From: Acidimicrobiaceae bacterium
GTDB lineage: Bacteria; Actinomycetota; Acidimicrobiia; Acidimicrobiales; JAUTXP01
Assembly (NCBI GenBank): GCA_030837965.1
Contig: JAUTXP010000021.1
Location: 14,844-78,843 of the forward strand
Length of the DNA stretch: 64,000 nt
Reading direction: 5' to 3'
A model generated the notes under the pieces. The model saw nothing but the letters and a program-made list of their open reading frames with translations. It was not told the DNA's origin and made no database searches. Below are positions 1-61,269 of the stretch, one piece after another. The translations under genes and the position numbers were made by a program. The first letter of the stretch is position 1. Each line of letters starts with the position of its first letter.

Positions 1-2
1 TC

Positions 3-1418
3 TTCGCCTTCGGCGACGCGGGCTACTACGGCTCCCTCGGCGGACGGGCCCTGCCTGCCCCGATCGTGGGCATGGCCGTCACGCCCGGCGGGGTGGGGTA
101 CTGGCTGGTGGGGGCCAAGGGGGACGTCTACCCCTTCGGCGATGCGGGCTCGTTCGGGTCCATGGGCTCGGCCCGGCTGGCCTCTCCCATCGTGGGCATG
201 GCCTCGCCGCCAGGGGGCAAGGGCTACTGGCTGGTGGCGGCCGACGGCGGGATCTTCAACTTCGGCGACGCGCCCTATCTGGGATCGACCGGCGGCATGG
301 CCCTCAACCGACCCATCGTGGGCATGGCCTCGTCACCGCGCGGAGCCGGGTACTGGCTGGTGGCATCCGACGGCGGGATCTTCGCCTACGGCGACGCGCC
401 CTTCGCGGGCAGCGCGGGCGGCCTGCCGCTGCGGGCCCCTGTCGTCTACATGGCAGCGCCGCCTGTGCGCATCCGACCTGAGGTCAGCGTCTTCTACTAC
501 CCGTGGTACGCCAACCCCCAGGACGGCGGCGGGGTCTGGCGCCACTGGGAGCAGGGCGGCCACAACCCGCCCGCCGACGTGTCCTCCGACTACTACCCGA
601 CGCGCGGTGCATACAGCAGTGCGGACACCGCCGTGCTGGACGCCCAGATGGCCGAGATCGCGGGGGCGGGCGTGGACACGGTCGTGACCTCATGGTGGGG
701 ACCGGGCTCCTACGAGGACACCGTGCTGCCGCTGGTCCTGGCCGCGGCCCAGGCCCACGGCCTGCACGTCGCCGTGCACATCGAGCCGTATGGGGGCCGG
801 TCGCCCGGCACTGTCGAGCGCGACATCTCGCGGTTGAGCTTCAAATACGGGCTAGACGACTTTTATGTGTATGAAGCCATGATTTCGCCCGCCTCTGAGT
901 GGAATCCGGTGACGTCGCGACTCAACAACGTGCGAATACTCGGCGAGACCGGCAGCCTCTCAGCCCAACTGTCGGGGCGCTTCGCGTCCTTCGCAGCCGC
1001 TTCCGGATTCGATGGCGTCTACACCTATGACCCCGTGCGCTACGGACGCAGCGAGTTCGGCTTCGCGTGCGGTGCGGCCCGCCAGCGCCGACTGCTCTGC
1101 GGGCCGTCGGTGGCCCCCGGCCAGGTGGCCACCCGCACCCTGCCCGGACGGGCCATCGTGGACCGGGCCGGAGGGCAGCGCTACAACGCCCAATGGCTTG
1201 AAGGCACTGATGCGGGCGCCGACCTCATGACCATCACCAGCTACAACGAGTGGCACGAGGGCACGCAGATCGAGCCTGCCCAGGGCTACTGCTGGCCCCA
1301 GGGCGGATGCACGCCGGGGTATGACGGCGCCTATGGCCGGGGCGGCGGTCTGGCCACTGTGGCCTACTTGGACGCCACCCAGGCATTTGCCACTCGGTTT
1401 CGGGCCACCCGGCCGTAA
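3..1418 (+). CDS. GH99-like glycoside hydrolase (endo-alpha-mannosidase family) with N-terminal ~41-aa repeats; 5' end cut by the window edge
   Basis: The frame is open from base 3 and the first codons (FAFGDAGYYGSLGG..PIVGMA) form another repeat copy. There are at least 3.5 copies of GYWLV..DGG(I/V)F.(F/Y)GDA.(F/Y).GS...PIVGMA. The C-terminal half matches GH99 hallmarks (FYYPWY..W.HW..GGHNPP.D..S.YYP..G.YSS.D..V and ITSYNEWHEGTQIEPA). Stop TAA at 1416-1418. Confidence 0.75.
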   Translation, partial: FAFGDAGYYGSLGGRALPAPIVGMAVTPGGVGYWLVGAKGDVYPFGDAGSFGSMGSARLASPIVGMASPPGGKGYWLVAADGGIFNFGDAPYLGSTGGMALNRPIVGMASSPRGAGYWLVASDGGIFAYGDAPFAGSAGGLPLRAPVVYMAAPPVRIRPEVSVFYYPWYANPQDGGGVWRHWEQGGHNPPADVSSDYYPTRGAYSSADTAVLDAQMAEIAGAGVDTVVTSWWGPGSYEDTVLPLVLAAAQAHGLHVAVHIEPYGGRSPGTVERDISRLSFKYGLDDFYVYEAMISPASEWNPVTSRLNNVRILGETGSLSAQLSGRFASFAAASGFDGVYTYDPVRYGRSEFGFACGAARQRRLLCGPSVAPGQVATRTLPGRAIVDRAGGQRYNAQWLEGTDAGADLMTITSYNEWHEGTQIEPAQGYCWPQGGCTPGYDGAYGRGGGLATVAYLDATQAFATRFRATRP

Positions 1419-2018: not shown

Positions 2019-2065
2019 GTCTGGAGGACATGGCCTGCGGAAACGCCAGGGCATGTCCTCCAGAC
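2019..2065. terminator. Hairpin, family A copy 1 (GTCTGGAGGACATG ... CATGTCCTCCAGAC); probable bidirectional terminator
   Basis: A 14-bp perfect inverted repeat spans 2019-2032 and 2052-2065. It has imperfect stem extension and a central GAAA. It lies between the stop of the + gene (2001) and the stop of the convergent sigma gene (2090). Confidence 0.55.
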
Positions 2066-2089
2066 GGATACGAGGGGGAGGGGGTGGGG

Positions 2090-9289: not shown

Positions 9290-10564
9290 GTGGCCAAGTT
9301 CGGGGACGGGGGCGACCTCGTCAAGTGCAGCTTCTGCGGCAAGTCGCAGAAGCAGGTCAAAAAGCTCATCGCAGGGCCTGGGGTCTACATCTGCGACGAA
9401 TGCATCGACCTGTGCAACGACATCATCGAAGAGGAGCTGGCCGAGTCGTCGGAGATGCGCTTCGACGAGCTGCCCAAGCCCCAGGAGATCTTCTCGTTCC
9501 TGAACGACTACGTCATCGGCCAGGACCGGGCCAAGAAGATCCTGTCGGTCGCCGTCTACAACCACTACAAGCGGGTGCAGTCGGGCGCGTACCACGACTC
9601 CGACGTGGAGCTGGCCAAGTCGAACATCTTGCTGTTGGGGCCGACCGGGTGCGGCAAGACGCTGCTGGCCCAGACGCTGGCCCGCATGCTCAACGTCCCA
9701 TTCGCCATTGCCGACGCCACTGCGTTGACCGAGGCCGGCTACGTGGGCGAGGACGTCGAGAACATCCTGCTGAAGCTGATCCAGGCGGCCGACTACGACG
9801 TCAAGAAGGCCGAGACGGGGATCATCTACATCGACGAGATCGACAAGATCGCCCGCAAGTCGGAGAACCCGTCGATCACGCGTGACGTGTCGGGCGAGGG
9901 CGTGCAGCAGGCCCTGTTGAAGATCCTGGAGGGGACTACGGCGTCGGTGCCGCCCCAGGGCGGGCGCAAGCATCCGCACCAGGAGTTCATCCAGATCGAC
10001 ACGACCAACATCTTGTTCATCTGCGGCGGGGCCTTCGCCGGGCTGGACAAGATCATCGAGTCGCGCATCGGGCGCAAGGGCATCGGCTTCCGGGCCGACA
10101 TCGCCAAGTCGTCCGAGAAGGACGAGGGCGCCTTGATGGCCCAGGTGCTGCCCGAGGACCTGCTCAAGTTCGGCCTCATCCCCGAGTTCGTCGGCCGCCT
10201 GCCCGTCATCGGCGCCGTGTCCGGCCTGGACCGGGGCGCGCTGGTGGAGATCCTGGTCGAGCCCAAGAACGCCTTGGTGAAGCAGTACCGCAAGGTGTTC
10301 GAGCTGGACGGCGTGGAGCTCGAGTTCTCCACCGACGCCCTCGAGGCCGTGGCCGAGCAGGCCCTGTTGCGGGGCACCGGCGCCCGCGGCCTGCGGGCCA
10401 TCTTGGAAGAGGTGCTGTTGGAGGTCATGTACGACCTGCCCAGCCGCACCGACATCGGCGGGTGCGTGATCACCCGCGAGGTGGTGCTCGAGCGGGTCAA
10501 CCCGACCCTGGTCCCGCGCGCCGAGACCGACAAGACCGACCGCCCCCGCCGGGCCGCCTCCTAA
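9290..10564 (+). CDS. clpX: ATP-dependent Clp protease ATP-binding subunit ClpX
   Basis: Zn-finger [30 protein letters not shown], Walker A GPTGCGKT, and IYIDEIDKI. Confidence 0.95.
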
Positions 10565-21080: not shown

Positions 21081-22214
21081 GTGTCGACCATCTCCTTGAG
21101 CCGCTCTCGCACCAGCTCGAGCCCGTCGCCCCTGCGGCACCTCGACATGTCGCTCGTCTTCGCCGCCCTGTTCGTGGCCGGGCTGGGCGTGTTGATGGTC
21201 TACAGCGCGACCCAGCACCGCTTCGAGGCGTCGCCCTCGTTCTTCATGGAGCGCCAGTTGCTGTACGTGCTGCTGGGTCTGGGCGCCATGGCCGCGGCCG
21301 CGTCGATCGACTACCGCATCTACAGGGACCACGCCCACCTCGTCTACGGGGCCACGGTGCTGCTGCTGGTGCTCGTGGTGTCGCCGCTGGGGTCGAACCG
21401 CAAGGGGGCCCAGGCCTGGTTCCAGTTGGGGTCGTTCCAGTTGCAGCCGTCCGAATGGGCCAAGGTGGCGCTGATCGTGTGCATCGCGGCCTATGGCGCG
21501 GCCCACAGGGGCGACTTGGACGGGCGCAGGCTGATCGTGCTGCTCGGGCTGGCGGCCGTGCCCATGGGGCTGATCGAGTTGCAGCCCGACTTGGGCACCG
21601 ACCTCGTGTTCGGGGCCATCCTGCTGGGCACGCTGCTGGTCGCCGGGGCCCGGCCCAGGCACATGGCCGCGCTGGGCCTGCTGGCTGTGCTGGCCGTGGT
21701 GGCGGTGTTCCACTTCGGCTTGCTGAAGGACTACCAGCGGGACCGGCTGACCGCCTTCCTCGACCCCAAGGGCGACACCCAGCGCTCGGCCTACAACCTC
21801 AACCAGTCCAAGCTGGCCATCTCGCACGGCGGGGTGACGGGCCAGGGGCTGTTCAAGGGGACGCAGACCAACTTGTCGTACGTGCCCGAACAGCACACCG
21901 ACTTCATCTTCACCGTGGTGGGCGAGGAGCTGGGGCTGGTCGGCTCGGGGACGCTGCTGGCCCTGTTCGCGTTCTTGGTCTGGCGCATCTGGCGGGCCGC
22001 GGCCTTGGCCAAGGACTTGACGGGCACGCTCATCTGCATCGGCGTGCTGGCCATGTTCGTGTTCCAGATCTTCGAGAACGTCGGGATGACCATGGGCATC
22101 ATGCCCATCACCGGCATCCCGCTGCCGTTCATGAGCTACGGCGGTTCGGCCACCCTGGCCGAGTTCGCGGCCATCGGCCTGGTCCTCAACGTCCACATGC
22201 GCCGCTTCTCCTGA
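21081..22214 (+). CDS. rodA: SEDS-family peptidoglycan polymerase RodA
   Basis: FtsW/RodA/SpoVE family (QPSEWAKVALIV, PEQHTDFIF, GIPLPFMSYGGS). It starts immediately after the mrdA stop. Confidence 0.9.
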   Translation: MSTISLSRSRTSSSPSPLRHLDMSLVFAALFVAGLGVLMVYSATQHRFEASPSFFMERQLLYVLLGLGAMAAAASIDYRIYRDHAHLVYGATVLLLVLVVSPLGSNRKGAQAWFQLGSFQLQPSEWAKVALIVCIAAYGAAHRGDLDGRRLIVLLGLAAVPMGLIELQPDLGTDLVFGAILLGTLLVAGARPRHMAALGLLAVLAVVAVFHFGLLKDYQRDRLTAFLDPKGDTQRSAYNLNQSKLAISHGGVTGQGLFKGTQTNLSYVPEQHTDFIFTVVGEELGLVGSGTLLALFAFLVWRIWRAAALAKDLTGTLICIGVLAMFVFQIFENVGMTMGIMPITGIPLPFMSYGGSATLAEFAAIGLVLNVHMRRFS

Positions 22215-22245
22215 CTTTTCCACAGCAGCAGGTGCTGTGGAAAAG
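22215..22245. repeat. 31-bp perfect palindrome, family B copy 1 (CTTTTCCACAGCA-GCAGG-TGCTGTGGAAAAG)
   Basis: It has 13-bp perfect arms and a 5-nt spacer. It is identical to 40665-40695, and both copies are followed by T(T)CGGGG.GGGGGCGG. It begins 1 nt after the rodA stop. Confidence 0.9.
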
Positions 22246-22282
22246 TTCGGGGCGGGGGCGGGAGTACACTCGCGGACCGGAC

Positions 22283-24202
22283 ATGACTTCTCTCTGGCCC
22301 AGGATCGAGCCCCTCCTGGCCAAGGTGCAGAAGCCCGCCCGCTACATCGGGTGCGAGGACGGCGCGCAGATGCCCGTCCACGCCCCCCACAAGGTCGGCT
22401 GGCTCCTCGTCTACCCCGACGCCTACGAGGTCGGGTTGCCCAACCAGGGGCTCCAAATCCTCTACGAGATCCTCAACGAGCGGCCGGACGCGGCGGCCGA
22501 GCGGTCGTACGCGCCATGGACCGACATGGAGCGCGAGATGCGGGCCCGGGGCCTGCCGCTGTTCAGTGTCGACAGCCACCGGCCCGCGGCCGACTTCGAC
22601 CTGCTGGCCTTCAACCTCAGCGCCGAGCTCGTCTACACGAACCTGTTGAACTGCATCGACCTGGCGGGCGTCCCTGTACGCGCGGCCGAGCGGGGGCCGG
22701 ACGACCCGCTGGTGTGCGCGGGCGGCCACTGCACGTTCAATCCCGAGCCGCTGGCCGACTTCGTCGACTTCTTCGTCATCGGTGACGGCGAGGAGGCGGT
22801 CAGCGAGATCACCGAGGTGGTGGGGGACTGGAAGCGCGGCGGGCGCACCGAGGGGTCGCGCCAAAACGTCTTGGCCGCGCTGGCCCAAGTGCCTGGCGTC
22901 TACGTGCCGTCCATGTACGACGTCGAGTACGACGGCGAGCGGCTGGTCAGCGTCACGCCCCGGCATGCGGGCATCCCCGAGCGGGTCGAGAAGCGCACCA
23001 TCGCCGACCTGAACGACTGGCCGTATCCAAAGCAGCAACTGGTCCCGCTGACCGAGGTGGTGCACGACCGGCTCAACGTCGAGATCTTCCGGGGCTGCAC
23101 GCGGGGCTGTCGCTTCTGCCAGGCGGGCATGATCACCCGGCCCGTGCGCGAGCGCAGCAACGAGCAGGTTCGCAGCATGGTGAGCAACGGCCTCAAGCGC
23201 ACCGGGTACGACGAGGTCAGCCTCACGTCGCTCAGCAGCGCGGACTACTCCGGCATCGAGGACGTGGTCGGCGGCATCATCAACGACCCCATGTGCCAAG
23301 GGTCGGTGGGCGTCAGCCTCCCGAGCCTGCGGGTGGACGCCTACACGGTCGGCATCGCCAGCGAGATCGCCAAGGTTCGACGCACCGGGCTCACGTTCGC
23401 CCCCGAGGGCGGTACCTGGCGAATGCGTCAGGTCATCAACAAGCTCATCCGCGAAGAGGACCTGTACGGCGCGGTGGAGTCGGCCTTCAGCCAAGGCTGG
23501 AACCGGGTCAAGCTGTACTTCCTGATCGGCCTGCCCACCGAGACGGACGAGGACACGCTCGGCATCGCCGAGCTGGCCCGCAAGTGCGTGGCCGTGGGCA
23601 AGCAGCACACCAACCGGGTCACGGTCAGCGCGTCGGTGGGCGGGTTCGTGCCCAAGCCACAGACGCCGTTCCAATGGTTCGGCCAGAACACGGTGGCCGA
23701 GCTGCAGCGCAAGGTCGGGCTCCTGCGGGACGCGACCAAAAAGGACAGGGGCGTGCAGTTGAAGTGGCACGACCCCAAGGCCACGCTGGCCGAGGGCATC
23801 GCCTCCAGGGGCGACCGCAGGCTGGGCCCGGTCATCGAGGACGTGTGGCGCCACGGCGGCGTCTTCCAGGAGTGGTCCGAGCACTTCGACCTCTCCCTGT
23901 GGGAGGACGCCATGGCCCGACACGGCCTCAGCATCGACTGGTACGTCTACCGCCACCGCGGCGAGGACGAGGTCCTGCCCTGGGACCACGTCTCGGCCGG
24001 GCTCCACAAGGACTTCCTCTGGCAGGACTGGCAGGACGCGCTCGCTGCGTCCGGCGTCGAGGACTGCCGCTGGACCCCGTGTTACGACTGCGGGGCCTGC
24101 ACCGGCTACGGCATCGAGCACGTGGTGGCCTCCACCCTGCCGCCCGCGGGCGGCAGCCAGGGGACGTTCGTCCCCGTGCAGCTCTCGGCGGCTCGGACCT
24201 GA
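22283..24202 (+). CDS. B12-binding-domain radical SAM protein (TIGR03960-like)
   Basis: The N-terminus WPRIEPLLAKVQKPARYIGCE and the radical SAM cluster motif CTRGCRFCQAG are typical of this family. Confidence 0.85.
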   Translation: MTSLWPRIEPLLAKVQKPARYIGCEDGAQMPVHAPHKVGWLLVYPDAYEVGLPNQGLQILYEILNERPDAAAERSYAPWTDMEREMRARGLPLFSVDSHRPAADFDLLAFNLSAELVYTNLLNCIDLAGVPVRAAERGPDDPLVCAGGHCTFNPEPLADFVDFFVIGDGEEAVSEITEVVGDWKRGGRTEGSRQNVLAALAQVPGVYVPSMYDVEYDGERLVSVTPRHAGIPERVEKRTIADLNDWPYPKQQLVPLTEVVHDRLNVEIFRGCTRGCRFCQAGMITRPVRERSNEQVRSMVSNGLKRTGYDEVSLTSLSSADYSGIEDVVGGIINDPMCQGSVGVSLPSLRVDAYTVGIASEIAKVRRTGLTFAPEGGTWRMRQVINKLIREEDLYGAVESAFSQGWNRVKLYFLIGLPTETDEDTLGIAELARKCVAVGKQHTNRVTVSASVGGFVPKPQTPFQWFGQNTVAELQRKVGLLRDATKKDRGVQLKWHDPKATLAEGIASRGDRRLGPVIEDVWRHGGVFQEWSEHFDLSLWEDAMARHGLSIDWYVYRHRGEDEVLPWDHVSAGLHKDFLWQDWQDALAASGVEDCRWTPCYDCGACTGYGIEHVVASTLPPAGGSQGTFVPVQLSAART

Positions 24203-35234: not shown

Positions 35235-35267
35235 CGCCCTTCTCTGAACCTGCCCAGCCTCAGGCCG

Positions 35268-38714: not shown

Positions 38715-40655
38715 ATGGCGACATCGGACGAGGACGACCTGGCGTCGCTGTTCTCGATGCTTTCAGCATTGGACGACGAGCCCGTCGCGTCTGTCGCGCC
38801 CGTCGCGCCCGCTGTGCCCGCTGTGCCTGTCGCAACGGTCGCGCCCGCCGTCCCCGTCACGGCCGCGCCGCCCGCCGGGCCCGGCGAGGCCGACGTTGCC
38901 CTGCCTCCGTCCGTCCCTGCCACCGAGGGCTGGCACTCCGACCCCGGCGTGCCGGGCCAGTTGCGCTGGTTCGACGGCGTGCGCTGGACCGCGTCAGTGC
39001 GCCCTTCGGTCATGGCCGTGTCCTCATTCGCCGATCCCGGCCCCGCCCCAGTTGGGCTTCAGCCTGCGTCGTACCAGGCGCCGCCGCCGACGGAGCTGCC
39101 GCCGCAGCCGCCGTTCCCGCGCCAGCCCGGGCCCATCATCCGCACGGGCGACGACTTCGTGTTCGGCCACGCGGCCCCGGCCCGTTCGTGGCGGCTTCCC
39201 GTCCTCGGCGACTTGGACCGCAAGACCATCGTCCGCGTCGCCGTTGTGCTGGCCGTGCTGGTGGTGGCCGCCTACTCCACCGTGATCCGAGACGGTGGCC
39301 CCCACTATCCGAGTCGATGGGACGCACGGGTGGCCGACATCGCCCACTTCGTGGAGTCCGAGCGGGGCAGCACCTTCGAGCATCCGGTAGCCGTCGAGTT
39401 CTTGTCGGTGCCCGACTTCAAGAAGCACGTCGGCGGCGAGGCCGATGCGCTGTCGGCCGAAGACCGCAAGTCCCTCGACGACACCGCCGCGGCCATGCGC
39501 GCCCTCGGCCTGCTGTCCGGCCCCGTCGATCTGCACTCGCTGGAGAAGAAGCTCACCGAGGAGTCGATCATCGGGCTGTACGACCCGATGGCCAAGAAGG
39601 TCTGGGTGCGCGGGTCGCAGCTCACCCCCGACGTGCGCGTGACGCTGGCCCACGAACTCACCCACGCGTTGCAGGACCAGCGATTCGGCCTACTGCATCT
39701 TCAGCGCGACCCCAACTCCCAATCCGCAGTGCGGGCCTTGATCGAGGCCGACGCCCGCCGGGTCGAGGAGGTCTACCGGGGCCAGATGAGCGAGGCCGAC
39801 CAGAAGCTGTACGACGCGGCCCAGAAGACGGTCCAGTCGGAGAGCGACACGTCCGGGATTCCCGACGTGCTCACCCACTCGCTGGCCTTCCCCTATGTGT
39901 TCGGGCCGACGTTCGAGCAGGCCTTGATCGCCGAGGGCGGGCTGCCCGCGGTGGACCGCGCCTTTCGGTCGCCGCCGCACTCCGAGGCCGAGATCCTCGA
40001 TCCCGGCCTGTTCTTGAAGGGCTTCCGCGTGTCGACGCCGCCCGCCCCTCCGGTCGAGAAGGGTCGCCACCCCGTCGTTCGGCCCTCGCCGTTCGGCCAG
40101 GAGTCGATGGTCGAGGTGCTGGCCGGCCAGGTCGGGTTCGACGGGGCCTGGAAGGCGGTGCAGGGCTGGCGGGGCGACGTGGTGAGCATCGACGGGCCCA
40201 AGGCAGCCAAGGCCGGGAAGGCCGGCAAGCCCGGGAGCGCGGGCGACATCTGCGTGGCCGTCAACACCCGCTTCGACACCGACGAGCACGCCGCCGCGTT
40301 CAAGCAGGCCGCGTCCACGTGGGCCACCGCGGCCCACGGCACCGTCGTCGGCCGCGGCCGCACGGTCGGCATGCGGGCCTGTGACCCAGGCCCGTCGGCC
40401 GCCGCCCTGCCCAAGGCCGACCCCGACCCGTTCGCGGTCCTGTCCGTGCGGGCCGCGATCATGCAGGGGATGCTCGGTACCGATGGGGCAACGTTGGACT
40501 TGGTGACCTGCACGGTCGACACCCTGCTGGGCCAACTGGGCGCCAAGGCCTTCGCGGGCCTCAACGAGATCGCCGAGGGCGATCCGCGGATCGAGCAGGT
40601 CAAGCAGCAGGCCGGGTCGGCCGCGGCCGCCTGCCGCCAAGCCCCCCACGCCTGA
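38715..40655 (+). CDS. DUF2510-like N-terminal domain / single TM / extracytoplasmic HExxH metalloprotease-like protein
   Basis: GWHSDPGVPGQLRWFDGVRWT (DUF2510-type motif), TM IVRVAVVLAVLVVAAY, and VTLAHELTHALQDQ (HExxH). Confidence 0.7.
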   Translation: MATSDEDDLASLFSMLSALDDEPVASVAPVAPAVPAVPVATVAPAVPVTAAPPAGPGEADVALPPSVPATEGWHSDPGVPGQLRWFDGVRWTASVRPSVMAVSSFADPGPAPVGLQPASYQAPPPTELPPQPPFPRQPGPIIRTGDDFVFGHAAPARSWRLPVLGDLDRKTIVRVAVVLAVLVVAAYSTVIRDGGPHYPSRWDARVADIAHFVESERGSTFEHPVAVEFLSVPDFKKHVGGEADALSAEDRKSLDDTAAAMRALGLLSGPVDLHSLEKKLTEESIIGLYDPMAKKVWVRGSQLTPDVRVTLAHELTHALQDQRFGLLHLQRDPNSQSAVRALIEADARRVEEVYRGQMSEADQKLYDAAQKTVQSESDTSGIPDVLTHSLAFPYVFGPTFEQALIAEGGLPAVDRAFRSPPHSEAEILDPGLFLKGFRVSTPPAPPVEKGRHPVVRPSPFGQESMVEVLAGQVGFDGAWKAVQGWRGDVVSIDGPKAAKAGKAGKPGSAGDICVAVNTRFDTDEHAAAFKQAASTWATAAHGTVVGRGRTVGMRACDPGPSAAALPKADPDPFAVLSVRAAIMQGMLGTDGATLDLVTCTVDTLLGQLGAKAFAGLNEIAEGDPRIEQVKQQAGSAAAACRQAPHA

Positions 40656-40664
40656 CCCCCAAAT

Positions 40665-40695
40665 CTTTTCCACAGCAGCAGGTGCTGTGGAAAAG
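40665..40695. repeat. 31-bp perfect palindrome, family B copy 2
   Basis: Identical to 22215-22245. It starts 10 nt after the TGA at 40655 and is followed by TCGGGGGTGGGGGCGG. Confidence 0.9.
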
Positions 40696-40761
40696 TCGGG
40701 GGTGGGGGCGGTGCAGGGGTGAACTAGACCGAGCGGTCAAGTGGCGGGGTAATCTCCCCGG

Positions 40762-41628
40762 ATGGCTGAGCCTCGCTTTGAGACCGTCCCCGCCGTGCGC
40801 GAGAGCCTGCGCGACGTCGGCTATCTGGCCGACGAGGGCATCGCGGGCGTGGTGTACCTGGCCGATCGGCTGGGCAAGCCGGTGCTGGTCGAGGGGCCCG
40901 CGGGCACGGGCAAGACCCAGTTGGCCAAGTCGGTGGCCGAGATGACCGGGGCCCGCCTCATCCGCCTCCAGTGCTACGAGGGGCTGGACGAGTCCAAGGC
41001 CCTGTACGAGTGGAACTATAAGAAGCAGCTCCTGCGCATCCAGGTCGAGCGCGAGTCGTCCACGTGGCAGGAGATCGAGGACGACATCTTCACCGAGGAC
41101 TTCCTCCTCACCCGCCCGCTGTTGGAGGCCATCAGGGCCGACGACCCCGTGGTCCTCTTGATCGACGAGGTGGACCGCGTCGAGGTGGAGACCGAGGCCT
41201 TGCTGCTCGAGATCCTGTCCGACTACCAGGTGTCCATCCCCGAGTTGGGCACGGTGGTGGCCAAGCAGATCCCGCTCGTCTTCCTGACCTCCAACAACAC
41301 CCGCGAGCTCTCGGAGGCGTTGAAGCGGCGCTGCCTCTACCTCCACGTCGACTACCCCACGTTGGAGCGGGAGAAGGAGATCGTCACCACCCGCGTGCCC
41401 GACATCTCCGAGCACTTGGCCGACCAGGTCGTGCGCATCGTGCGCTCCATCCGCCAGTTGGAGTTGAAGAAGGCGCCGTCGGTTTCGGAAACGCTCGACT
41501 GGGCCCGCACGCTGGTCCTCCTCGGCATTCAGAACGTGGACGCCGACCAGGCCAAGGAGACCTTGCACATCTTGTTGAAGTACCAGTCCGACATCGCCAA
41601 GGCGACCAAGGAGCTGACCGTCTCCTAG
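40762..41628 (+). CDS. MoxR-family AAA+ ATPase (CoxD-like)
   Basis: VLVEGPAGTGKTQLAKSVA, RLQCYEGLDESKALYEWNY, and LLIDEVDR. TAATCT-N6-ATG suggests a leaderless start. Confidence 0.88.
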   Translation: MAEPRFETVPAVRESLRDVGYLADEGIAGVVYLADRLGKPVLVEGPAGTGKTQLAKSVAEMTGARLIRLQCYEGLDESKALYEWNYKKQLLRIQVERESSTWQEIEDDIFTEDFLLTRPLLEAIRADDPVVLLIDEVDRVEVETEALLLEILSDYQVSIPELGTVVAKQIPLVFLTSNNTRELSEALKRRCLYLHVDYPTLEREKEIVTTRVPDISEHLADQVVRIVRSIRQLELKKAPSVSETLDWARTLVLLGIQNVDADQAKETLHILLKYQSDIAKATKELTVS

Positions 41629-44544: not shown

Positions 44545-44554
44545 GCATTTCTCC

Positions 44555-44603
44555 CGTCTGGAGGACATACCCTGCGGTTTGCGCGTGTTCTGTCCTCCAG
44601 ACG
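44555..44603. terminator. Hairpin, family A copy 2 (CGTCTGGAGGACA ... TGTCCTCCAGACG)
   Basis: A 13-bp perfect inverted repeat at 44555-44567 and 44591-44603. The loop contains CCTGCGGTTTGCG, similar to the copy 1 loop. It lies 10 nt after the stop at 44544. Confidence 0.55.
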
Positions 44604-46416: not shown

Positions 46417-46487
46417 CGACGGCGGCCGGCTCTGCCGGTCGGCGGCGATTCGTCATGTCTCGCTTCGCAACCCTGGTTGCGAAGCGA

Positions 46488-60254: not shown

Positions 60255-60307
60255 CGTCGGGGCATCCTAGAAGGGCGGTGTAACAGCAACGCCGGCGCTC
60301 CGACGGC

Positions 60308-60330
60308 TTATCAACAATCGTTGTTGATTA
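60308..60330. promoter_or_regulatory. AT-rich palindromic operator candidate (TTATCAACAA-TCG-TTGTTGATTA), Fur-family box-like
   Basis: The 8-3-8 core is perfect (60310-60328). A second palindrome AGCACG-TG-CGTGCT lies at 60333-60346. Both sit in the 107-bp divergent region between the antiporter operon and the Fur-family gene. Confidence 0.5.
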
Positions 60331-60361
60331 GCAGCACGTGCGTGCTAGGGTCGCTCTCGCC

Positions 60362-60785
60362 GTGAAGACCCCCGCCGAGCTGACCGAGCTGTTCCGCACC
60401 CGAGGCTTCAAGGTCACCCCGCAGCGCCAGATGCTGTTCCGGCTGCTCCACGGCAATGACGTGCACCCCACGGCCGAGTCGCTCTATGCCGCGGCCAGCG
60501 CGGAGATGCCCACCATCTCGTTGCGCACCGTGTACCAGACGTTGAGCGACCTGGAGTCGATGGGTGAGATCCAGCAGCTCGACATGGGCACTGGGTCGAG
60601 CCGCTTCGACCCCAACACCGACGTACATCACCACTTGGTGTGCGAGCGGTGCGGCAAGGTCCGCGACCTGTACGCCGACTTCGCCATCTCGGTGCCGCGG
60701 GGCCGGGCCCAGGGATTCACCGTGAAGAACGCCGAGGTCGTGTTCCGCGGCCTCTGTGACACCTGCAAGCAAGGAGACGAACACC

Positions 60786-60793
<8 letters not shown>
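60362..60793 (+). CDS. Fur-family metalloregulator (PerR/Fur-like)
   Basis: [26 protein letters not shown], and the second CxxC in LCDTC. GTG 60362 is preferred because it lies 10 nt after TAGGGT. GTG 60338 is also possible. Confidence 0.85.
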
Positions 60794-61205
<412 letters not shown>

Positions 61206-61224: not shown

Positions 61225-61269
61225 CTGGAGGACATGGTGGCCGCGCGCCACCGCCACCATGTCCTCCAG
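61225..61269. terminator. Hairpin, family A copy 3 (CTGGAGGACATGGTGG ... CCACCATGTCCTCCAG)
   Basis: A 16-bp perfect inverted repeat with a 13-nt loop, 20 nt after the rubrerythrin stop. Confidence 0.6.

What the first reader, a model, noticed from the sequence alone, without database searches (positions are those of the whole stretch)
22215..22262. 31-bp perfect palindrome present twice in the window, with arms that fit the DnaA-box consensus
CTTTTCCACAGCA-GCAGG-TGCTGTGGAAAAG has 13-bp arms and a 5-nt spacer. It occurs at 22215-22245 and, base-for-base identical, at 40665-40695.

- Both copies continue into a similar G-run tail (T(T)CGGGG.GGGGGCGG), giving about 48 nt of shared sequence.
- The element is strikingly AT-rich for this genome.
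- Each arm contains TTTTCCACA, which fits the classical DnaA-box consensus TTWTNCACA, so each copy presents two convergent boxes.
- Both copies start 1-10 nt after a TGA stop (rodA; the metalloprotease-like gene) and precede a new transcription unit (the radical SAM gene; moxR).

Two alternative readings are a U-tail-less intrinsic terminator or RNA element family, and a REP-like dispersed repeat. Perfect identity over 18 kb of separation suggests either strong constraint (a protein-binding site) or recent spread.
Basis: partly seen in the sequence, partly recalled or inferred. Interest (0 to 1): 0.6.

Follow-up and report, generated by a model that had tools for sequence, protein, structure and literature searches.

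The report
Dispersed hairpin repeat after stop codons
The twice-occurring 31-bp palindrome is real, but it is one copy type of a high-copy hairpin repeat that sits just after stop codons in a group of soil Acidimicrobiaceae, comparable to REP elements of E. coli or the TRIT hairpins of mycobacteria. Its match to the DnaA box is most likely a coincidence.

Summary
CTTTTCCACAGCA-GCAGG-TGCTGTGGAAAAG occurs identically at 22215-22245 and 40665-40695, with 0 matches expected by chance. Each copy has a similar G-run tail and lies 0 and 9 nt after a TGA stop.

The DnaA reading is not supported.
- The window comes from an Acidimicrobiaceae MAG.
- One related soil metagenome (RodA 85% identical) holds more than 70 copies of the same element on about 50 contigs.
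- 34 of the 78 aligned members share an identical 37-mer, CGCG-TTTTCCCCAGCA-GCAGG-TGCTGGGGAAAA-CGCG, in which the DnaA box is broken.
- Only 13 of 78 members fit TTWTNCACA on both arms.

What is conserved is base pairing: 98% of stem cells pair, and 7 of 16 pairs show changes on both sides.
- The core sits a median of about 14 nt after a stop codon, with the loop in either orientation.
- C-rich left and G-rich right arms extend the hairpin.
- Some copies form tandem arrays with a period of about 53 nt.
- Orthologous sites in close relatives are empty, filled, or filled by a different subfamily.
- There is no U-tract and no Rfam match.

Best reading: a new REP/TRIT-like dispersed palindromic family that gives transcripts a long 3'-end hairpin. 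That function is inferred, not shown. Interest is modest.

The parts
22214..22246 (+). Copy 1 hairpin: 14-bp stem (ACTTTTCCACAGCA / TGCTGTGGAAAAGT) with loop GCAGG. The first stem base is the last base of the rodA TGA stop.
   Evidence: The 31-nt RNA fold gives -19.9 kcal/mol, z = -5.9. It matches covariance model R1 at 58.6 bits.
22246..22262 (+). G-rich right arm of copy 1 (TTCGGGGCGGGGGCGGG). In the predicted RNA fold it pairs with the last codons of rodA.
   Evidence: the 71-nt fold gives -43.8 kcal/mol on the + strand and -32.3 on the - strand. The family-wide right flank is 44-51% G.
22265..22285 (+). Conserved -10-like TACACT (22265-22270) followed by a short leader to the radical SAM ATG (22283). 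It belongs to the context, not to the repeat.
   Evidence: GGTACACT / GAGTACACT / GAGTACAAT ... CCGGACATG is conserved in 5 relatives whether or not the hairpin is present. Its reading as a promoter is inferred.
40641..40664 (+). C-rich left arm of copy 2 (CCCCCCACGCCTGACCCCCAAAT). It contains the TGA stop (40653-40655) of the upstream DUF2510/DUF6782 gene.
   Evidence: the 90-nt fold gives -51.9 kcal/mol. The family-wide left flank is 47-55% C.
40665..40695 (+). Copy 2 hairpin: 13-bp stem with loop GCAGG, identical to copy 1.
   Evidence: It matches R1 at 55.8 bits. It is absent at the orthologous site in 5 of 5 relatives.
40696..40719 (+). G-rich right arm of copy 2 (TCGGGGGTGGGGGCGGTGCAGGGG).
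   Evidence: It is part of the roughly 66 nt present in the window but not in relatives L158 and L160-L162.
40722..40764 (+). Conserved block AACTAGACCGAGCGGTCAAGT ... TAATCT ... ATG upstream of the AAA/MoxR-like gene. It belongs to the context: a promoter- or operator-like region that the element was inserted in front of.
   Evidence: It is nearly identical in L158-L162, all of which lack the hairpin. Its function is inferred.

Best explanation
The two 31-mers are copies of a dispersed, structure-constrained palindromic repeat family found in a clade of soil Acidimicrobiaceae.

Anatomy. A full element is about 70-85 nt:
- a C-rich left arm;
- a short outer clamp (CGCG or CGCC in relatives, reduced to a single C:G pair in this genome);
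- a 12-bp stem TTTTCC(A/C)CAGCA, a 5-nt loop, and the complementary arm;
- a G-rich right arm.

Behaviour. Copies lie in intergenic DNA, typically 5-20 nt after a stop codon, with the loop in either orientation. They are gained, lost and swapped between subfamilies at orthologous sites. They are nearly identical within a genome but differ between genomes. That is the behaviour of REP/BIME elements and of the mycobacterial TRIT motif.

Inferred function. When the upstream gene is transcribed, the element folds into a long hairpin, predicted at -44 to -53 kcal/mol, at the 3' end of the message. This hairpin probably defines or protects the transcript end. It may also help insulate the next promoter, with Rho or another factor rather than by classical intrinsic termination, because there is no U-tract.

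The TTTTCCACA match to the DnaA box is a by-product of one subfamily's stem sequence.

Shown: family membership, copy number, position, pairing constraint and turnover. Inferred: the RNA-level role and the mode of spread.
For: Family and copy number:
- A metagenome scan found 58 loci, 53 of them from one metagenome, Ga0190267.
- That organism is a close relative: the RodA on Ga0190267_10000008 is 85% identical to the window's.
- Model R1 and a relaxed scan raise the total to 78 members in four or more subfamilies.
- By-catch density is about 1 per 28 kb, against 1 per 32 kb in the window.

Pairing constraint:
- 98.2% of stem cells pair.
- 7 of 16 pairs have changes on both sides.
- 0 of 500 shuffles reach the observed covariation score.

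Position:
- 38 of 60 distances to a 3'-facing stop codon are at most 21 nt.
- In tandem gene contexts the core is nearer the upstream stop than the downstream start in 24 of 30 cases, p = 0.0014.
- Loop orientation relative to transcription is 13 to 11.

Flanks:
- The left flank is 47-55% C and the right flank 44-51% G in every gene context. The 30 nt after element-free stop codons (coding strand) are 41% C and 30% G.
- The flanks add about -18 kcal/mol.

Turnover at orthologous sites:
- The rodA 3' site carries three different subfamilies in three genomes, a different inverted repeat in a fourth, and is empty in L157.
- The AAA-upstream site is empty in 5 of 5 relatives.
- A crp/AAA convergent site is empty in the window but filled in L159 and L162.

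Other points:
- Direct tandem arrays with a period of 52-54 nt occur in relatives.
- TRIT precedent: 147 conserved bidirectional palindromic hairpins tightly placed at stop codons (PMC3152330).
Against: - No transcript data exist, so the RNA-level role is inference only.
- In mycobacteria, hairpins without U-tracts did not terminate purified RNA polymerase (PMC3993855). TRITs overlapped few mapped 3' ends (10.1101/2022.06.01.494293). The closest analogue therefore has no proven terminator function.
- No transposase or other mobilising gene was found, and no target-site duplication is visible in three filled-versus-empty comparisons.
- Covariation counts sequences, not independent events. It may reflect only 3-5 subfamily founders.
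- A symmetric DNA site bound by a dimer would show the same two-sided changes.
- The genome-wide copy number in the window's own genome is unknown; only 2 copies in 64 kb were seen.
Confidence: 0.6

Rival explanations
1. Purely selfish or neutral palindromic DNA. The element spreads by an unknown trans-acting enzyme, or by template switching or gene conversion. It has no role for the host. Its place just after stop codons only reflects where insertions are tolerated in a compact genome.
For: - Presence/absence polymorphism occurs at three orthologous sites between close relatives. L157 manages with a 27-nt rodA/radical SAM spacer and no hairpin at all.
- 34 identical 37-mers suggest recent amplification.
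- Decayed copies exist, at L097 and at L161:8646.
- Tandem duplications occur.
Against: - The rodA 3' site holds a hairpin of this superfamily in three of six genomes examined, each with a different subfamily, and another inverted repeat in a fourth. That hints that a hairpin is favoured there.
- The strong bias to the stop-codon side rather than the start side (24 of 30) fits a use at 3' ends, although it also fits avoidance of promoters.
Confidence: 0.25
2. DnaA-binding sites. Each copy presents two convergent DnaA boxes that titrate DnaA or let it regulate the downstream genes.
For: - TTTTCCACA fits TTWTNCACA. The four matches in the window are all in these palindromes, against 0.24 expected.
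- TTTTCCACAG...CTGTGGAAAA pairs occur inside multi-box clusters that look like origins of replication in many phyla. TTTTCCACA-type boxes are used by cyanobacterial DnaA (PMC4674748, listed).
Against: - Only 13 of 78 family members fit the box on both arms. The dominant type is TTTTCCCCA and a third type is CAATCCACA. Changes are compensated across the stem rather than preserving the box.
- The family has on the order of a hundred copies per genome, placed by stop codons rather than near an origin.
- The window has no dnaA or dnaN gene and no GC-skew turning point.
- The copy-2 site is empty in 5 of 5 relatives that keep the same downstream gene and promoter block.
Confidence: 0.04
3. Operator for a dimeric DNA-binding protein, either a global regulator or a nucleoid-associated protein, that recognises the conserved inner palindrome CC(A/C)CAGCA-N5-TGCTG(G/T)GG as double-stranded DNA.
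For: - The inner 8+8 bp are invariant in 78 copies while the outer stem varies.
- Both window copies lie 35-100 nt upstream of a start codon with a -10-like motif.
- Symmetric two-sided changes are also what a dimer site would show.
Against: - 13 of 49 classified copies lie between convergent genes with no promoter nearby. Copies sit next to stops, not starts.
- The non-palindromic loop is conserved in both orientations, which points to common descent rather than selection on a spacer.
- The long C-rich and G-rich arms and the tandem arrays are not operator features.
Confidence: 0.05
4. Classical intrinsic (Rho-independent) terminator family.
For: A stable hairpin sits directly after stop codons and ahead of a new transcription unit.
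Against: - The stem is followed by T or TT and then G-runs, or by CGCG plus G-runs in relatives, so there is no U-tract on either strand.
- The terminator scan finds nothing at either site.
- Actinobacterial RNA polymerase needed a U-tract in vitro (PMC3993855).
Confidence: 0.05

Closest known systems
TRIT (Tuberculosis Rho-independent terminator motif; Gardner et al. 2011, PMC3152330)
   Same: Both are high-copy, sequence-conserved palindromic hairpins in a high-GC actinobacterium. TRIT has 147 copies in M. tuberculosis. Both are mostly bidirectional, lack a canonical U-tract, and have a very narrow distribution around the stop codon of the nearest gene. Both are restricted to one clade.
   Different: The sequence and the host lineage differ: Acidimicrobiaceae here, Mycobacterium for TRIT. 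TRIT starts inside the coding sequence at about -8, whereas here the conserved core starts about 5-20 nt after the stop. This family also has C-rich and G-rich extension arms, several compensated subfamilies and tandem arrays. The TRIT model was not available, so no direct comparison was made.
REP / BIME elements of Enterobacteria and Pseudomonas (including REPINs mobilised by RAYT transposases)
   Same: Both are 20-40 bp imperfect palindromes that are extragenic and present in tens to hundreds of copies. Both occur in either orientation, concentrate at gene 3' ends, sometimes cluster, and have genome-specific sequence types. From prior knowledge, REPs are known to stabilise upstream mRNA and to attenuate transcription.
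   Different: No GTAG or CGTC tag was seen at the ends (defined in PMC3733652; checked in alignments A1 and A2). No RAYT gene was identified. Clusters here are direct tandem repeats with a period of about 53 nt, not inverted REPIN doublets. The host is a Gram-positive high-GC lineage in which REPs are little described.
DUS/USS inverted pairs acting as terminators in Neisseria and Haemophilus (from prior knowledge)
   Same: In both, a short conserved sequence occurs as an inverted repeat downstream of genes and forms hairpins.
   Different: Those motifs are selected as single 10-12-mers for DNA uptake and also occur unpaired. Here half-sites alone are rare and the stem sequence itself varies with compensation. 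Natural competence is not known for this clade.
DnaA box clusters (oriC, datA, DARS)
   Same: The 9-mer TTTTCCACA fits the DnaA box consensus, and the boxes are arranged convergently.
   Different: The box is not conserved among homologous copies. There are only two boxes per site. The sites lie at gene 3' ends throughout the genome.

Membership tests
DnaA box / DnaA-binding cluster | Sequence fits TTWTNCACA | tested here: met
   There are four matches in the window, all in the two palindromes, against 0.24 expected.
DnaA box / DnaA-binding cluster | The box is conserved among homologous copies, so that selection acts on the box | tested here: not met
   13 of 78 members fit on both arms. The modal 37-mer (34 copies) carries TTTTCCCCA.
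DnaA box / DnaA-binding cluster | Location at or near an origin or the dnaA gene, or a multi-box cluster | tested here: not met
   No dnaA or dnaN gene appears in the gene map and there is no GC-skew inflection. There are two boxes per site. Copies are scattered on about 50 contigs in the relative.
DnaA box / DnaA-binding cluster | Binding by DnaA | not testable with these tools
   This needs EMSA or ChIP.
Intrinsic terminator | Stable hairpin just downstream of a gene | tested here: met
   The core folds at -19.9 kcal/mol and the extended hairpins at -43.8 and -51.9 kcal/mol. They lie 0 and 9 nt after stop codons.
Intrinsic terminator | U-tract immediately 3' of the stem | tested here: not met
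   The stem is followed by TTCGGGG or TCGGGGG, and the scan finds no terminator-like site. In relatives it is followed by CGCG plus G-runs.
REP / BIME | Short imperfect palindrome, extragenic, many dispersed copies, both orientations | tested here: met
   78 members were found in the fetched DNA of relatives and the window. Loop orientations are GCAGG 24 and CCTGC 23. 55 of 61 strict copies lie outside called genes.
REP / BIME | Conserved GTAG or CGTC tetranucleotide at one end | tested here: not met
   The ends are CGCG, CGCC or CCGA in relatives and GAC or ATC in the window (alignments A1 and A2).
REP / BIME | Cognate RAYT (Y1/HUH) transposase gene flanked by the repeats | tested here: inconclusive
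   Genes lying between nearby copy pairs were inspected by their N-terminal sequences only. They are ordinary genes, such as a small heat-shock protein and TetR-, DedA- and YajQ-like proteins. No whole genome could be scanned.
TRIT | Conserved bidirectional palindromic hairpin tightly positioned at stop codons | tested here: met
   compared with the description in PMC3152330.
TRIT | Match to the TRIT covariance model, and restriction to Mycobacterium | not testable with these tools
   The TRIT model is not in Rfam (no hit). The host here is Acidimicrobiaceae, so at most this is an analogue.
MITE | Terminal inverted repeats with a target-site duplication | tested here: not met
   Three filled-versus-empty site comparisons show no duplicated flank. 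The whole element is a single palindrome.
CRISPR repeat | Regularly spaced repeats separated by unique spacers | tested here: not met
   The window copies are 18 kb apart. The match to CRISPR-DR41 scores 20 bits against a gathering score of 36.

The most novel reading that the evidence does not exclude
The invariant inner palindrome, CC(A/C)CAGCA-N5-TGCTG(G/T)GG, is the recognition element for a dedicated factor. That factor could be a hairpin- or dsRNA-binding protein that ends or processes transcripts in U-tract-poor, high-GC actinobacteria. It could instead be a non-RAYT enzyme that copies the hairpin to new stop-codon-proximal sites. In either case the family would mark a factor-dependent, sequence-specific 3'-end system of a kind suspected for TRIT but never demonstrated.
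Probability: 0.12. Interest if true: 0.7.

Novelty: new member of a known kind. Interest (0 to 1): 0.33.

Why it matters
It would add a clear, well-delimited palindromic repeat family in Acidimicrobiia, a common but poorly studied soil lineage. That helps annotation: these hairpins mark gene 3' ends, and they should not be called DnaA boxes, small RNAs or CRISPR fragments.

It also gives a second actinobacterial case beside TRIT of sequence-conserved, U-tract-less hairpins tightly placed at stop codons. A second case strengthens the question of how such lineages define transcript ends.

The many near-identical copies, compensated subfamilies and filled or empty orthologous sites make it a usable system for studying how such repeats spread.

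Tried and rejected
- Genome-collection scan. The pattern TTTTCCACAG-N5-13-CTGTGGAAAA was too loose.
- Exact-protein look-ups of the window's own RodA and AAA proteins found no record, so the source contig could not be extended beyond the window.
- First gene-context pass. It used stop-to-stop ORFs, which placed many copies 'inside' genes. I replaced it with a GC3-trimmed gene caller. Six copies are still scored 'inside' and are probably caller errors.
- Idea that the conserved core inserts into pre-existing, copy-specific terminator hairpins: rejected. A copy's own flanks stabilise the fold no more than flanks swapped between copies (-18.5 versus -18.4 kcal/mol, p = 0.36).
- RAYT-like gene flanked by copies. 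The genes between close copy pairs are ordinary ones. This remains inconclusive.
- Rfam at gathering and at E-value thresholds returned only generic hairpin noise.
- Viral contigs held no copies.
- Synteny between the window and the 53 Ga0190267 loci fetched by the pattern scan: none shared. Orthologous-site comparisons had to come from RodA and AAA homologues instead.
- Literature searches for this sequence or for Acidimicrobiia palindromic repeats found nothing specific.

Full report
**1. The observation**

The 31-mer CTTTTCCACAGCAGCAGGTGCTGTGGAAAAG occurs at 22215-22245 and again, base for base, at 40665-40695. Shuffles give no matches.

- In copy 1 the stem is 14 bp (22214-22246) and its first base is the A of the rodA stop codon.
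- The G-run tails, TTCGGGGCGGGGGCGG and TCGGGGGTGGGGGCGG, differ by one indel and one substitution.
- The window is about 70% GC and the 31-mer is 52% GC.
- TTWTNCACA occurs four times in the window, only in these two palindromes, against 0.24 expected.
- Pfam confirms the gene context. FtsW/RodA ends at 22214 and a radical SAM protein starts at 22283. A DUF2510/DUF6782 protein ends at 40655 and an AAA/MoxR-like ATPase, followed by a VWA-CoxE protein, starts at 40762.

The description is therefore accurate.

**2. Source and relatives**

The RodA and AAA proteins match, at 100% identity, entries named 'MAG: Acidimicrobiaceae bacterium' on a 90,410-bp contig. Relatives with RodA 83-87% identical and the AAA protein 94-96% identical come from soil metagenomes: JGI Ga0190267, Ga0467045 and Ga0467046, and ENA ERZ1760229 'FX_forest'.

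**3. The element is one copy type of a high-copy family**

A metagenome scan with TTTTCCMCAGCA-N3-9-TGCTGKGGAAAA returned 58 loci. Of these, 53 came from the single metagenome Ga0190267, on about 50 different contigs of about 71% GC. That metagenome also holds the contig Ga0190267_10000008, whose RodA is 85% identical to the window's. The many copies therefore belong to a close relative.

A covariance model (R1) built from 61 copies, together with a relaxed scan, brought the total to 78 members. The types are:

| Type | Sequence | Stem-arm count |
|---|---|---|
| Modal | CGCG-TTTTCCCCAGCA-loop-TGCTGGGGAAAA-CGCG | 41 (34 identical over 37 nt) |
| Second | CGCC-TTTTCCACAGCA...TGCTGTGGAAAA-GGCG | 10 |
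| Third | CCGACAATCCACAGCA...TGCTGTGGATTGTCGG | about 13 |
| Single variants | CCGCATTTCCACAGCA, and in one genome CACAAC/GTTGTG | few |
| Window type | outer clamp reduced to one C:G pair | 2 |

Copies that were not the reason a locus was fetched occur about once per 28 kb of the relative's DNA. The window has one per 32 kb. R1 finds no further copy in the window.

**4. What is conserved**

Over the 16-bp stem of the 78-member alignment, 98.2% of cells form standard pairs. Seven pairs carry changes on both sides. No shuffle reaches the observed covariation, and sliding the partner by 1-3 columns drops pairing to 40-58%.

The caveat is that the changes come in blocks that define subfamilies, so they represent a few events, not 120.

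The 5-nt loop is GCAGG in 24 copies and its reverse complement CCTGC in 23. Relative to the direction of the flanking gene the split is 13 to 11. Orientation therefore does not matter.

Only 13 of 78 members fit TTWTNCACA on both arms. The DnaA box is not the conserved feature. It is a property of one stem variant.

**5. Anatomy beyond the core**

The 25-30 nt to the left are 47-55% C and about 19% G. The same span to the right is 44-51% G and 18-27% C. This holds in tandem, convergent and divergent gene contexts. The 30 nt after element-free stop codons, read on the coding strand, are 41% C and 30% G.

Motifs such as CCCCACCCCC and GGGGTGGGGG recur. These arms add about -18 kcal/mol to the fold, but a copy's own right arm is no better than another copy's. 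The arms are therefore a generic part of the family, not older local hairpins.

In the window:
- Copy 2 has both arms; the left one contains the stop codon.
- Copy 1 has only the right arm, which is predicted to pair with the last rodA codons through G-U pairs (-43.8 kcal/mol on the + strand, -32.3 on the - strand).

Five loci of the relative carry direct tandem arrays with a period of 52-54 nt.

**6. Position**

Gene calls came from my own GC3-based caller, in which stop codons are exact and starts approximate.

- 38 of 60 distances from the core to a facing stop codon are at most 21 nt, with a median of about 14.
- Distances to facing starts have a median of about 50.
- In tandem contexts the core is closer to the upstream stop in 24 of 30 cases (p = 0.0014).
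- Convergent spacers hold 13 of 49 classified copies, against 41 of 254 background spacers. Divergent spacers hold 6 of 49, against 48 of 254.

**7. Turnover at orthologous sites**

*rodA 3' end, six genomes:*
- window: TTTT-A type;
- L096: TTTT-C type, loop in the other orientation, with long complementary flanks;
- L156: ACAAT type;
- L095: an unrelated inverted repeat (TTCTTTGAACGC ... GCGTTCAAAGAA);
- L097: a degenerate remnant;
- L157: nothing. Its spacer reads TGA-CCCCCC-GGTACACT...ATG and is 27 nt long.

*Upstream of the AAA gene:* all five relatives lack the element. They keep the block AACTAGACCGANCGGTCAAGT...TAATCT...ATG. The window therefore gained about 66 nt here.

*Convergent crp-like/AAA spacer:* it is empty in the window (35235-35267), but filled in L159 and in L162, by different variants.

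This gain, loss and replacement, together with near identity within a genome and genome-specific variants, is how REP-type repeats behave. No target-site duplication is visible.

**8. What it is not**

- Not a known RNA family. Rfam gives no family at gathering score and only generic hairpin hits below threshold.
- Not a canonical intrinsic terminator. There is no U-tract and the scan returns no terminator-like site.
- Not viral.
- Not a CRISPR array.
- No RAYT-like gene was found between close copy pairs, but no full genome was available to search.

**9. Likely mechanism**

Shown: a dispersed palindromic family constrained to pair, placed at gene 3' ends, and turning over between close relatives.

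Inferred: transcription of the upstream gene yields C-rich arm, hairpin, then G-rich arm, which fold into a hairpin of roughly 30 bp. A structure like that at a 3' end blocks 3'-exonucleases. It can also pause RNA polymerase. The C-rich, G-poor leader followed by a hairpin is the arrangement that Rho-terminator predictors look for (method description).

In both window sites the hairpin separates a gene end from a conserved -10-like motif of the next gene. A role as a transcript-end or insulator element is therefore plausible.

Against over-reading:
- Mycobacterial RNA polymerase did not terminate at U-less hairpins in vitro.
- TRITs barely overlap mapped 3' ends.
- One relative has no hairpin at the rodA site.

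A purely selfish element remains a serious rival, at about 0.25.

**10. Comparison with known families, and novelty**

The nearest analogues are TRIT and REP/BIME.
- TRIT is a set of 147 conserved bidirectional hairpins at stop codons in M. tuberculosis, restricted to Mycobacterium.
- The REP tag (GTAG or CGTC) is absent here and the RAYT link is untested. I therefore call this REP/TRIT-like, not a member of either family.

Searches of the held literature found no description of this sequence or of such repeats in Acidimicrobiia. A survey tool paper lists Acidimicrobium ferrooxidans only in a table of genomes.

My verdict is a new member of a known kind. It is useful for annotation and as a second actinobacterial example beside TRIT, but it is not surprising in kind.

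Noticed in passing
window 2019-2067, 44554-44602, 61225-61269; also L101:722, L102:12002, L104:4534, L106:7457, L113:7917, L114:5790, L121:8091, L128:1479, L131:7764, L139:1845, L155:4420, L158 about 4200: A second, unrelated dispersed hairpin family. It has conserved outer arms CTGGAGGACAT(A/G)... / ...(C/T)ATGTCCTCCAG and a variable but self-complementary inner part. In the window each of the three copies lies just after a gene end. In the relative it again sits between C-rich and G-rich flanks.
   Followed up: partly
window 60306-60332: An AT-rich near-perfect palindrome, GCTTATCAACAATCGTTGTTGATTAGC, lies about 30 nt upstream of a Fur-family regulator gene (60362-60793). That gene is followed by a rubrerythrin gene (60822-61205). 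It looks like an autoregulated PerR/Fur-type operator.
   Followed up: partly
window 40722-40756 and L158-L162 just upstream of position 10001: The block AACTAGACCGANCGGTCAAGT, containing the inverted repeat GACCG-N-CGGTC, is followed by GGGGTAATCT and then the ATG 6 nt later. It is nearly invariant in six genomes upstream of the AAA/MoxR-like and VWA-CoxE gene pair. It is a candidate operator plus promoter of a leaderless mRNA.
   Followed up: partly
window 22263-22285 and the orthologous spacers in L095, L097, L156, L157: G(A/G)GTACA(C/A)T followed by about 12 nt and then ATGACTTCTCTCTGG is conserved in front of the radical SAM gene, whatever lies upstream. It is a likely -10 element with a very short leader.
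   Followed up: partly
window 1-430: Three to four tandem 126-nt coding repeats, 65-76% identical and encoding (F/Y)xFGDAG-type units, lie at the start of an ORF whose C-terminal part matches glycosyl hydrolase family 99.
   Followed up: no
loci L001-L094: Convergent TTTTCCACAG ... CTGTGGAAAA pairs are common in many phyla. They often have a third box between them, for example TTTTCCACAGGGTTTTCCACACCTGTGGAAAA in several Acidobacteriota and Aminicenantes MAGs. These are presumably origin or dnaA-promoter box clusters. L046 (Spongiisociaceae MAG) has TTTTCCACAGCAGCTGCTGCTGTGGAAAA, which resembles the element studied here.
   Followed up: no
L096 11180-20083: In one relative the radical SAM/RNase E synteny downstream of rodA is interrupted by a convergent small gene and a 2563-aa RHS/YD-repeat protein gene.
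   Followed up: no
window 46460-46487: A perfect 12-bp-stem palindrome, TCGCTTCGCAACC-CTGG-TTGCGAAGCGA, fills the spacer between the start of one minus-strand gene and the stop of the next. It is a single copy in the window.
   Followed up: no
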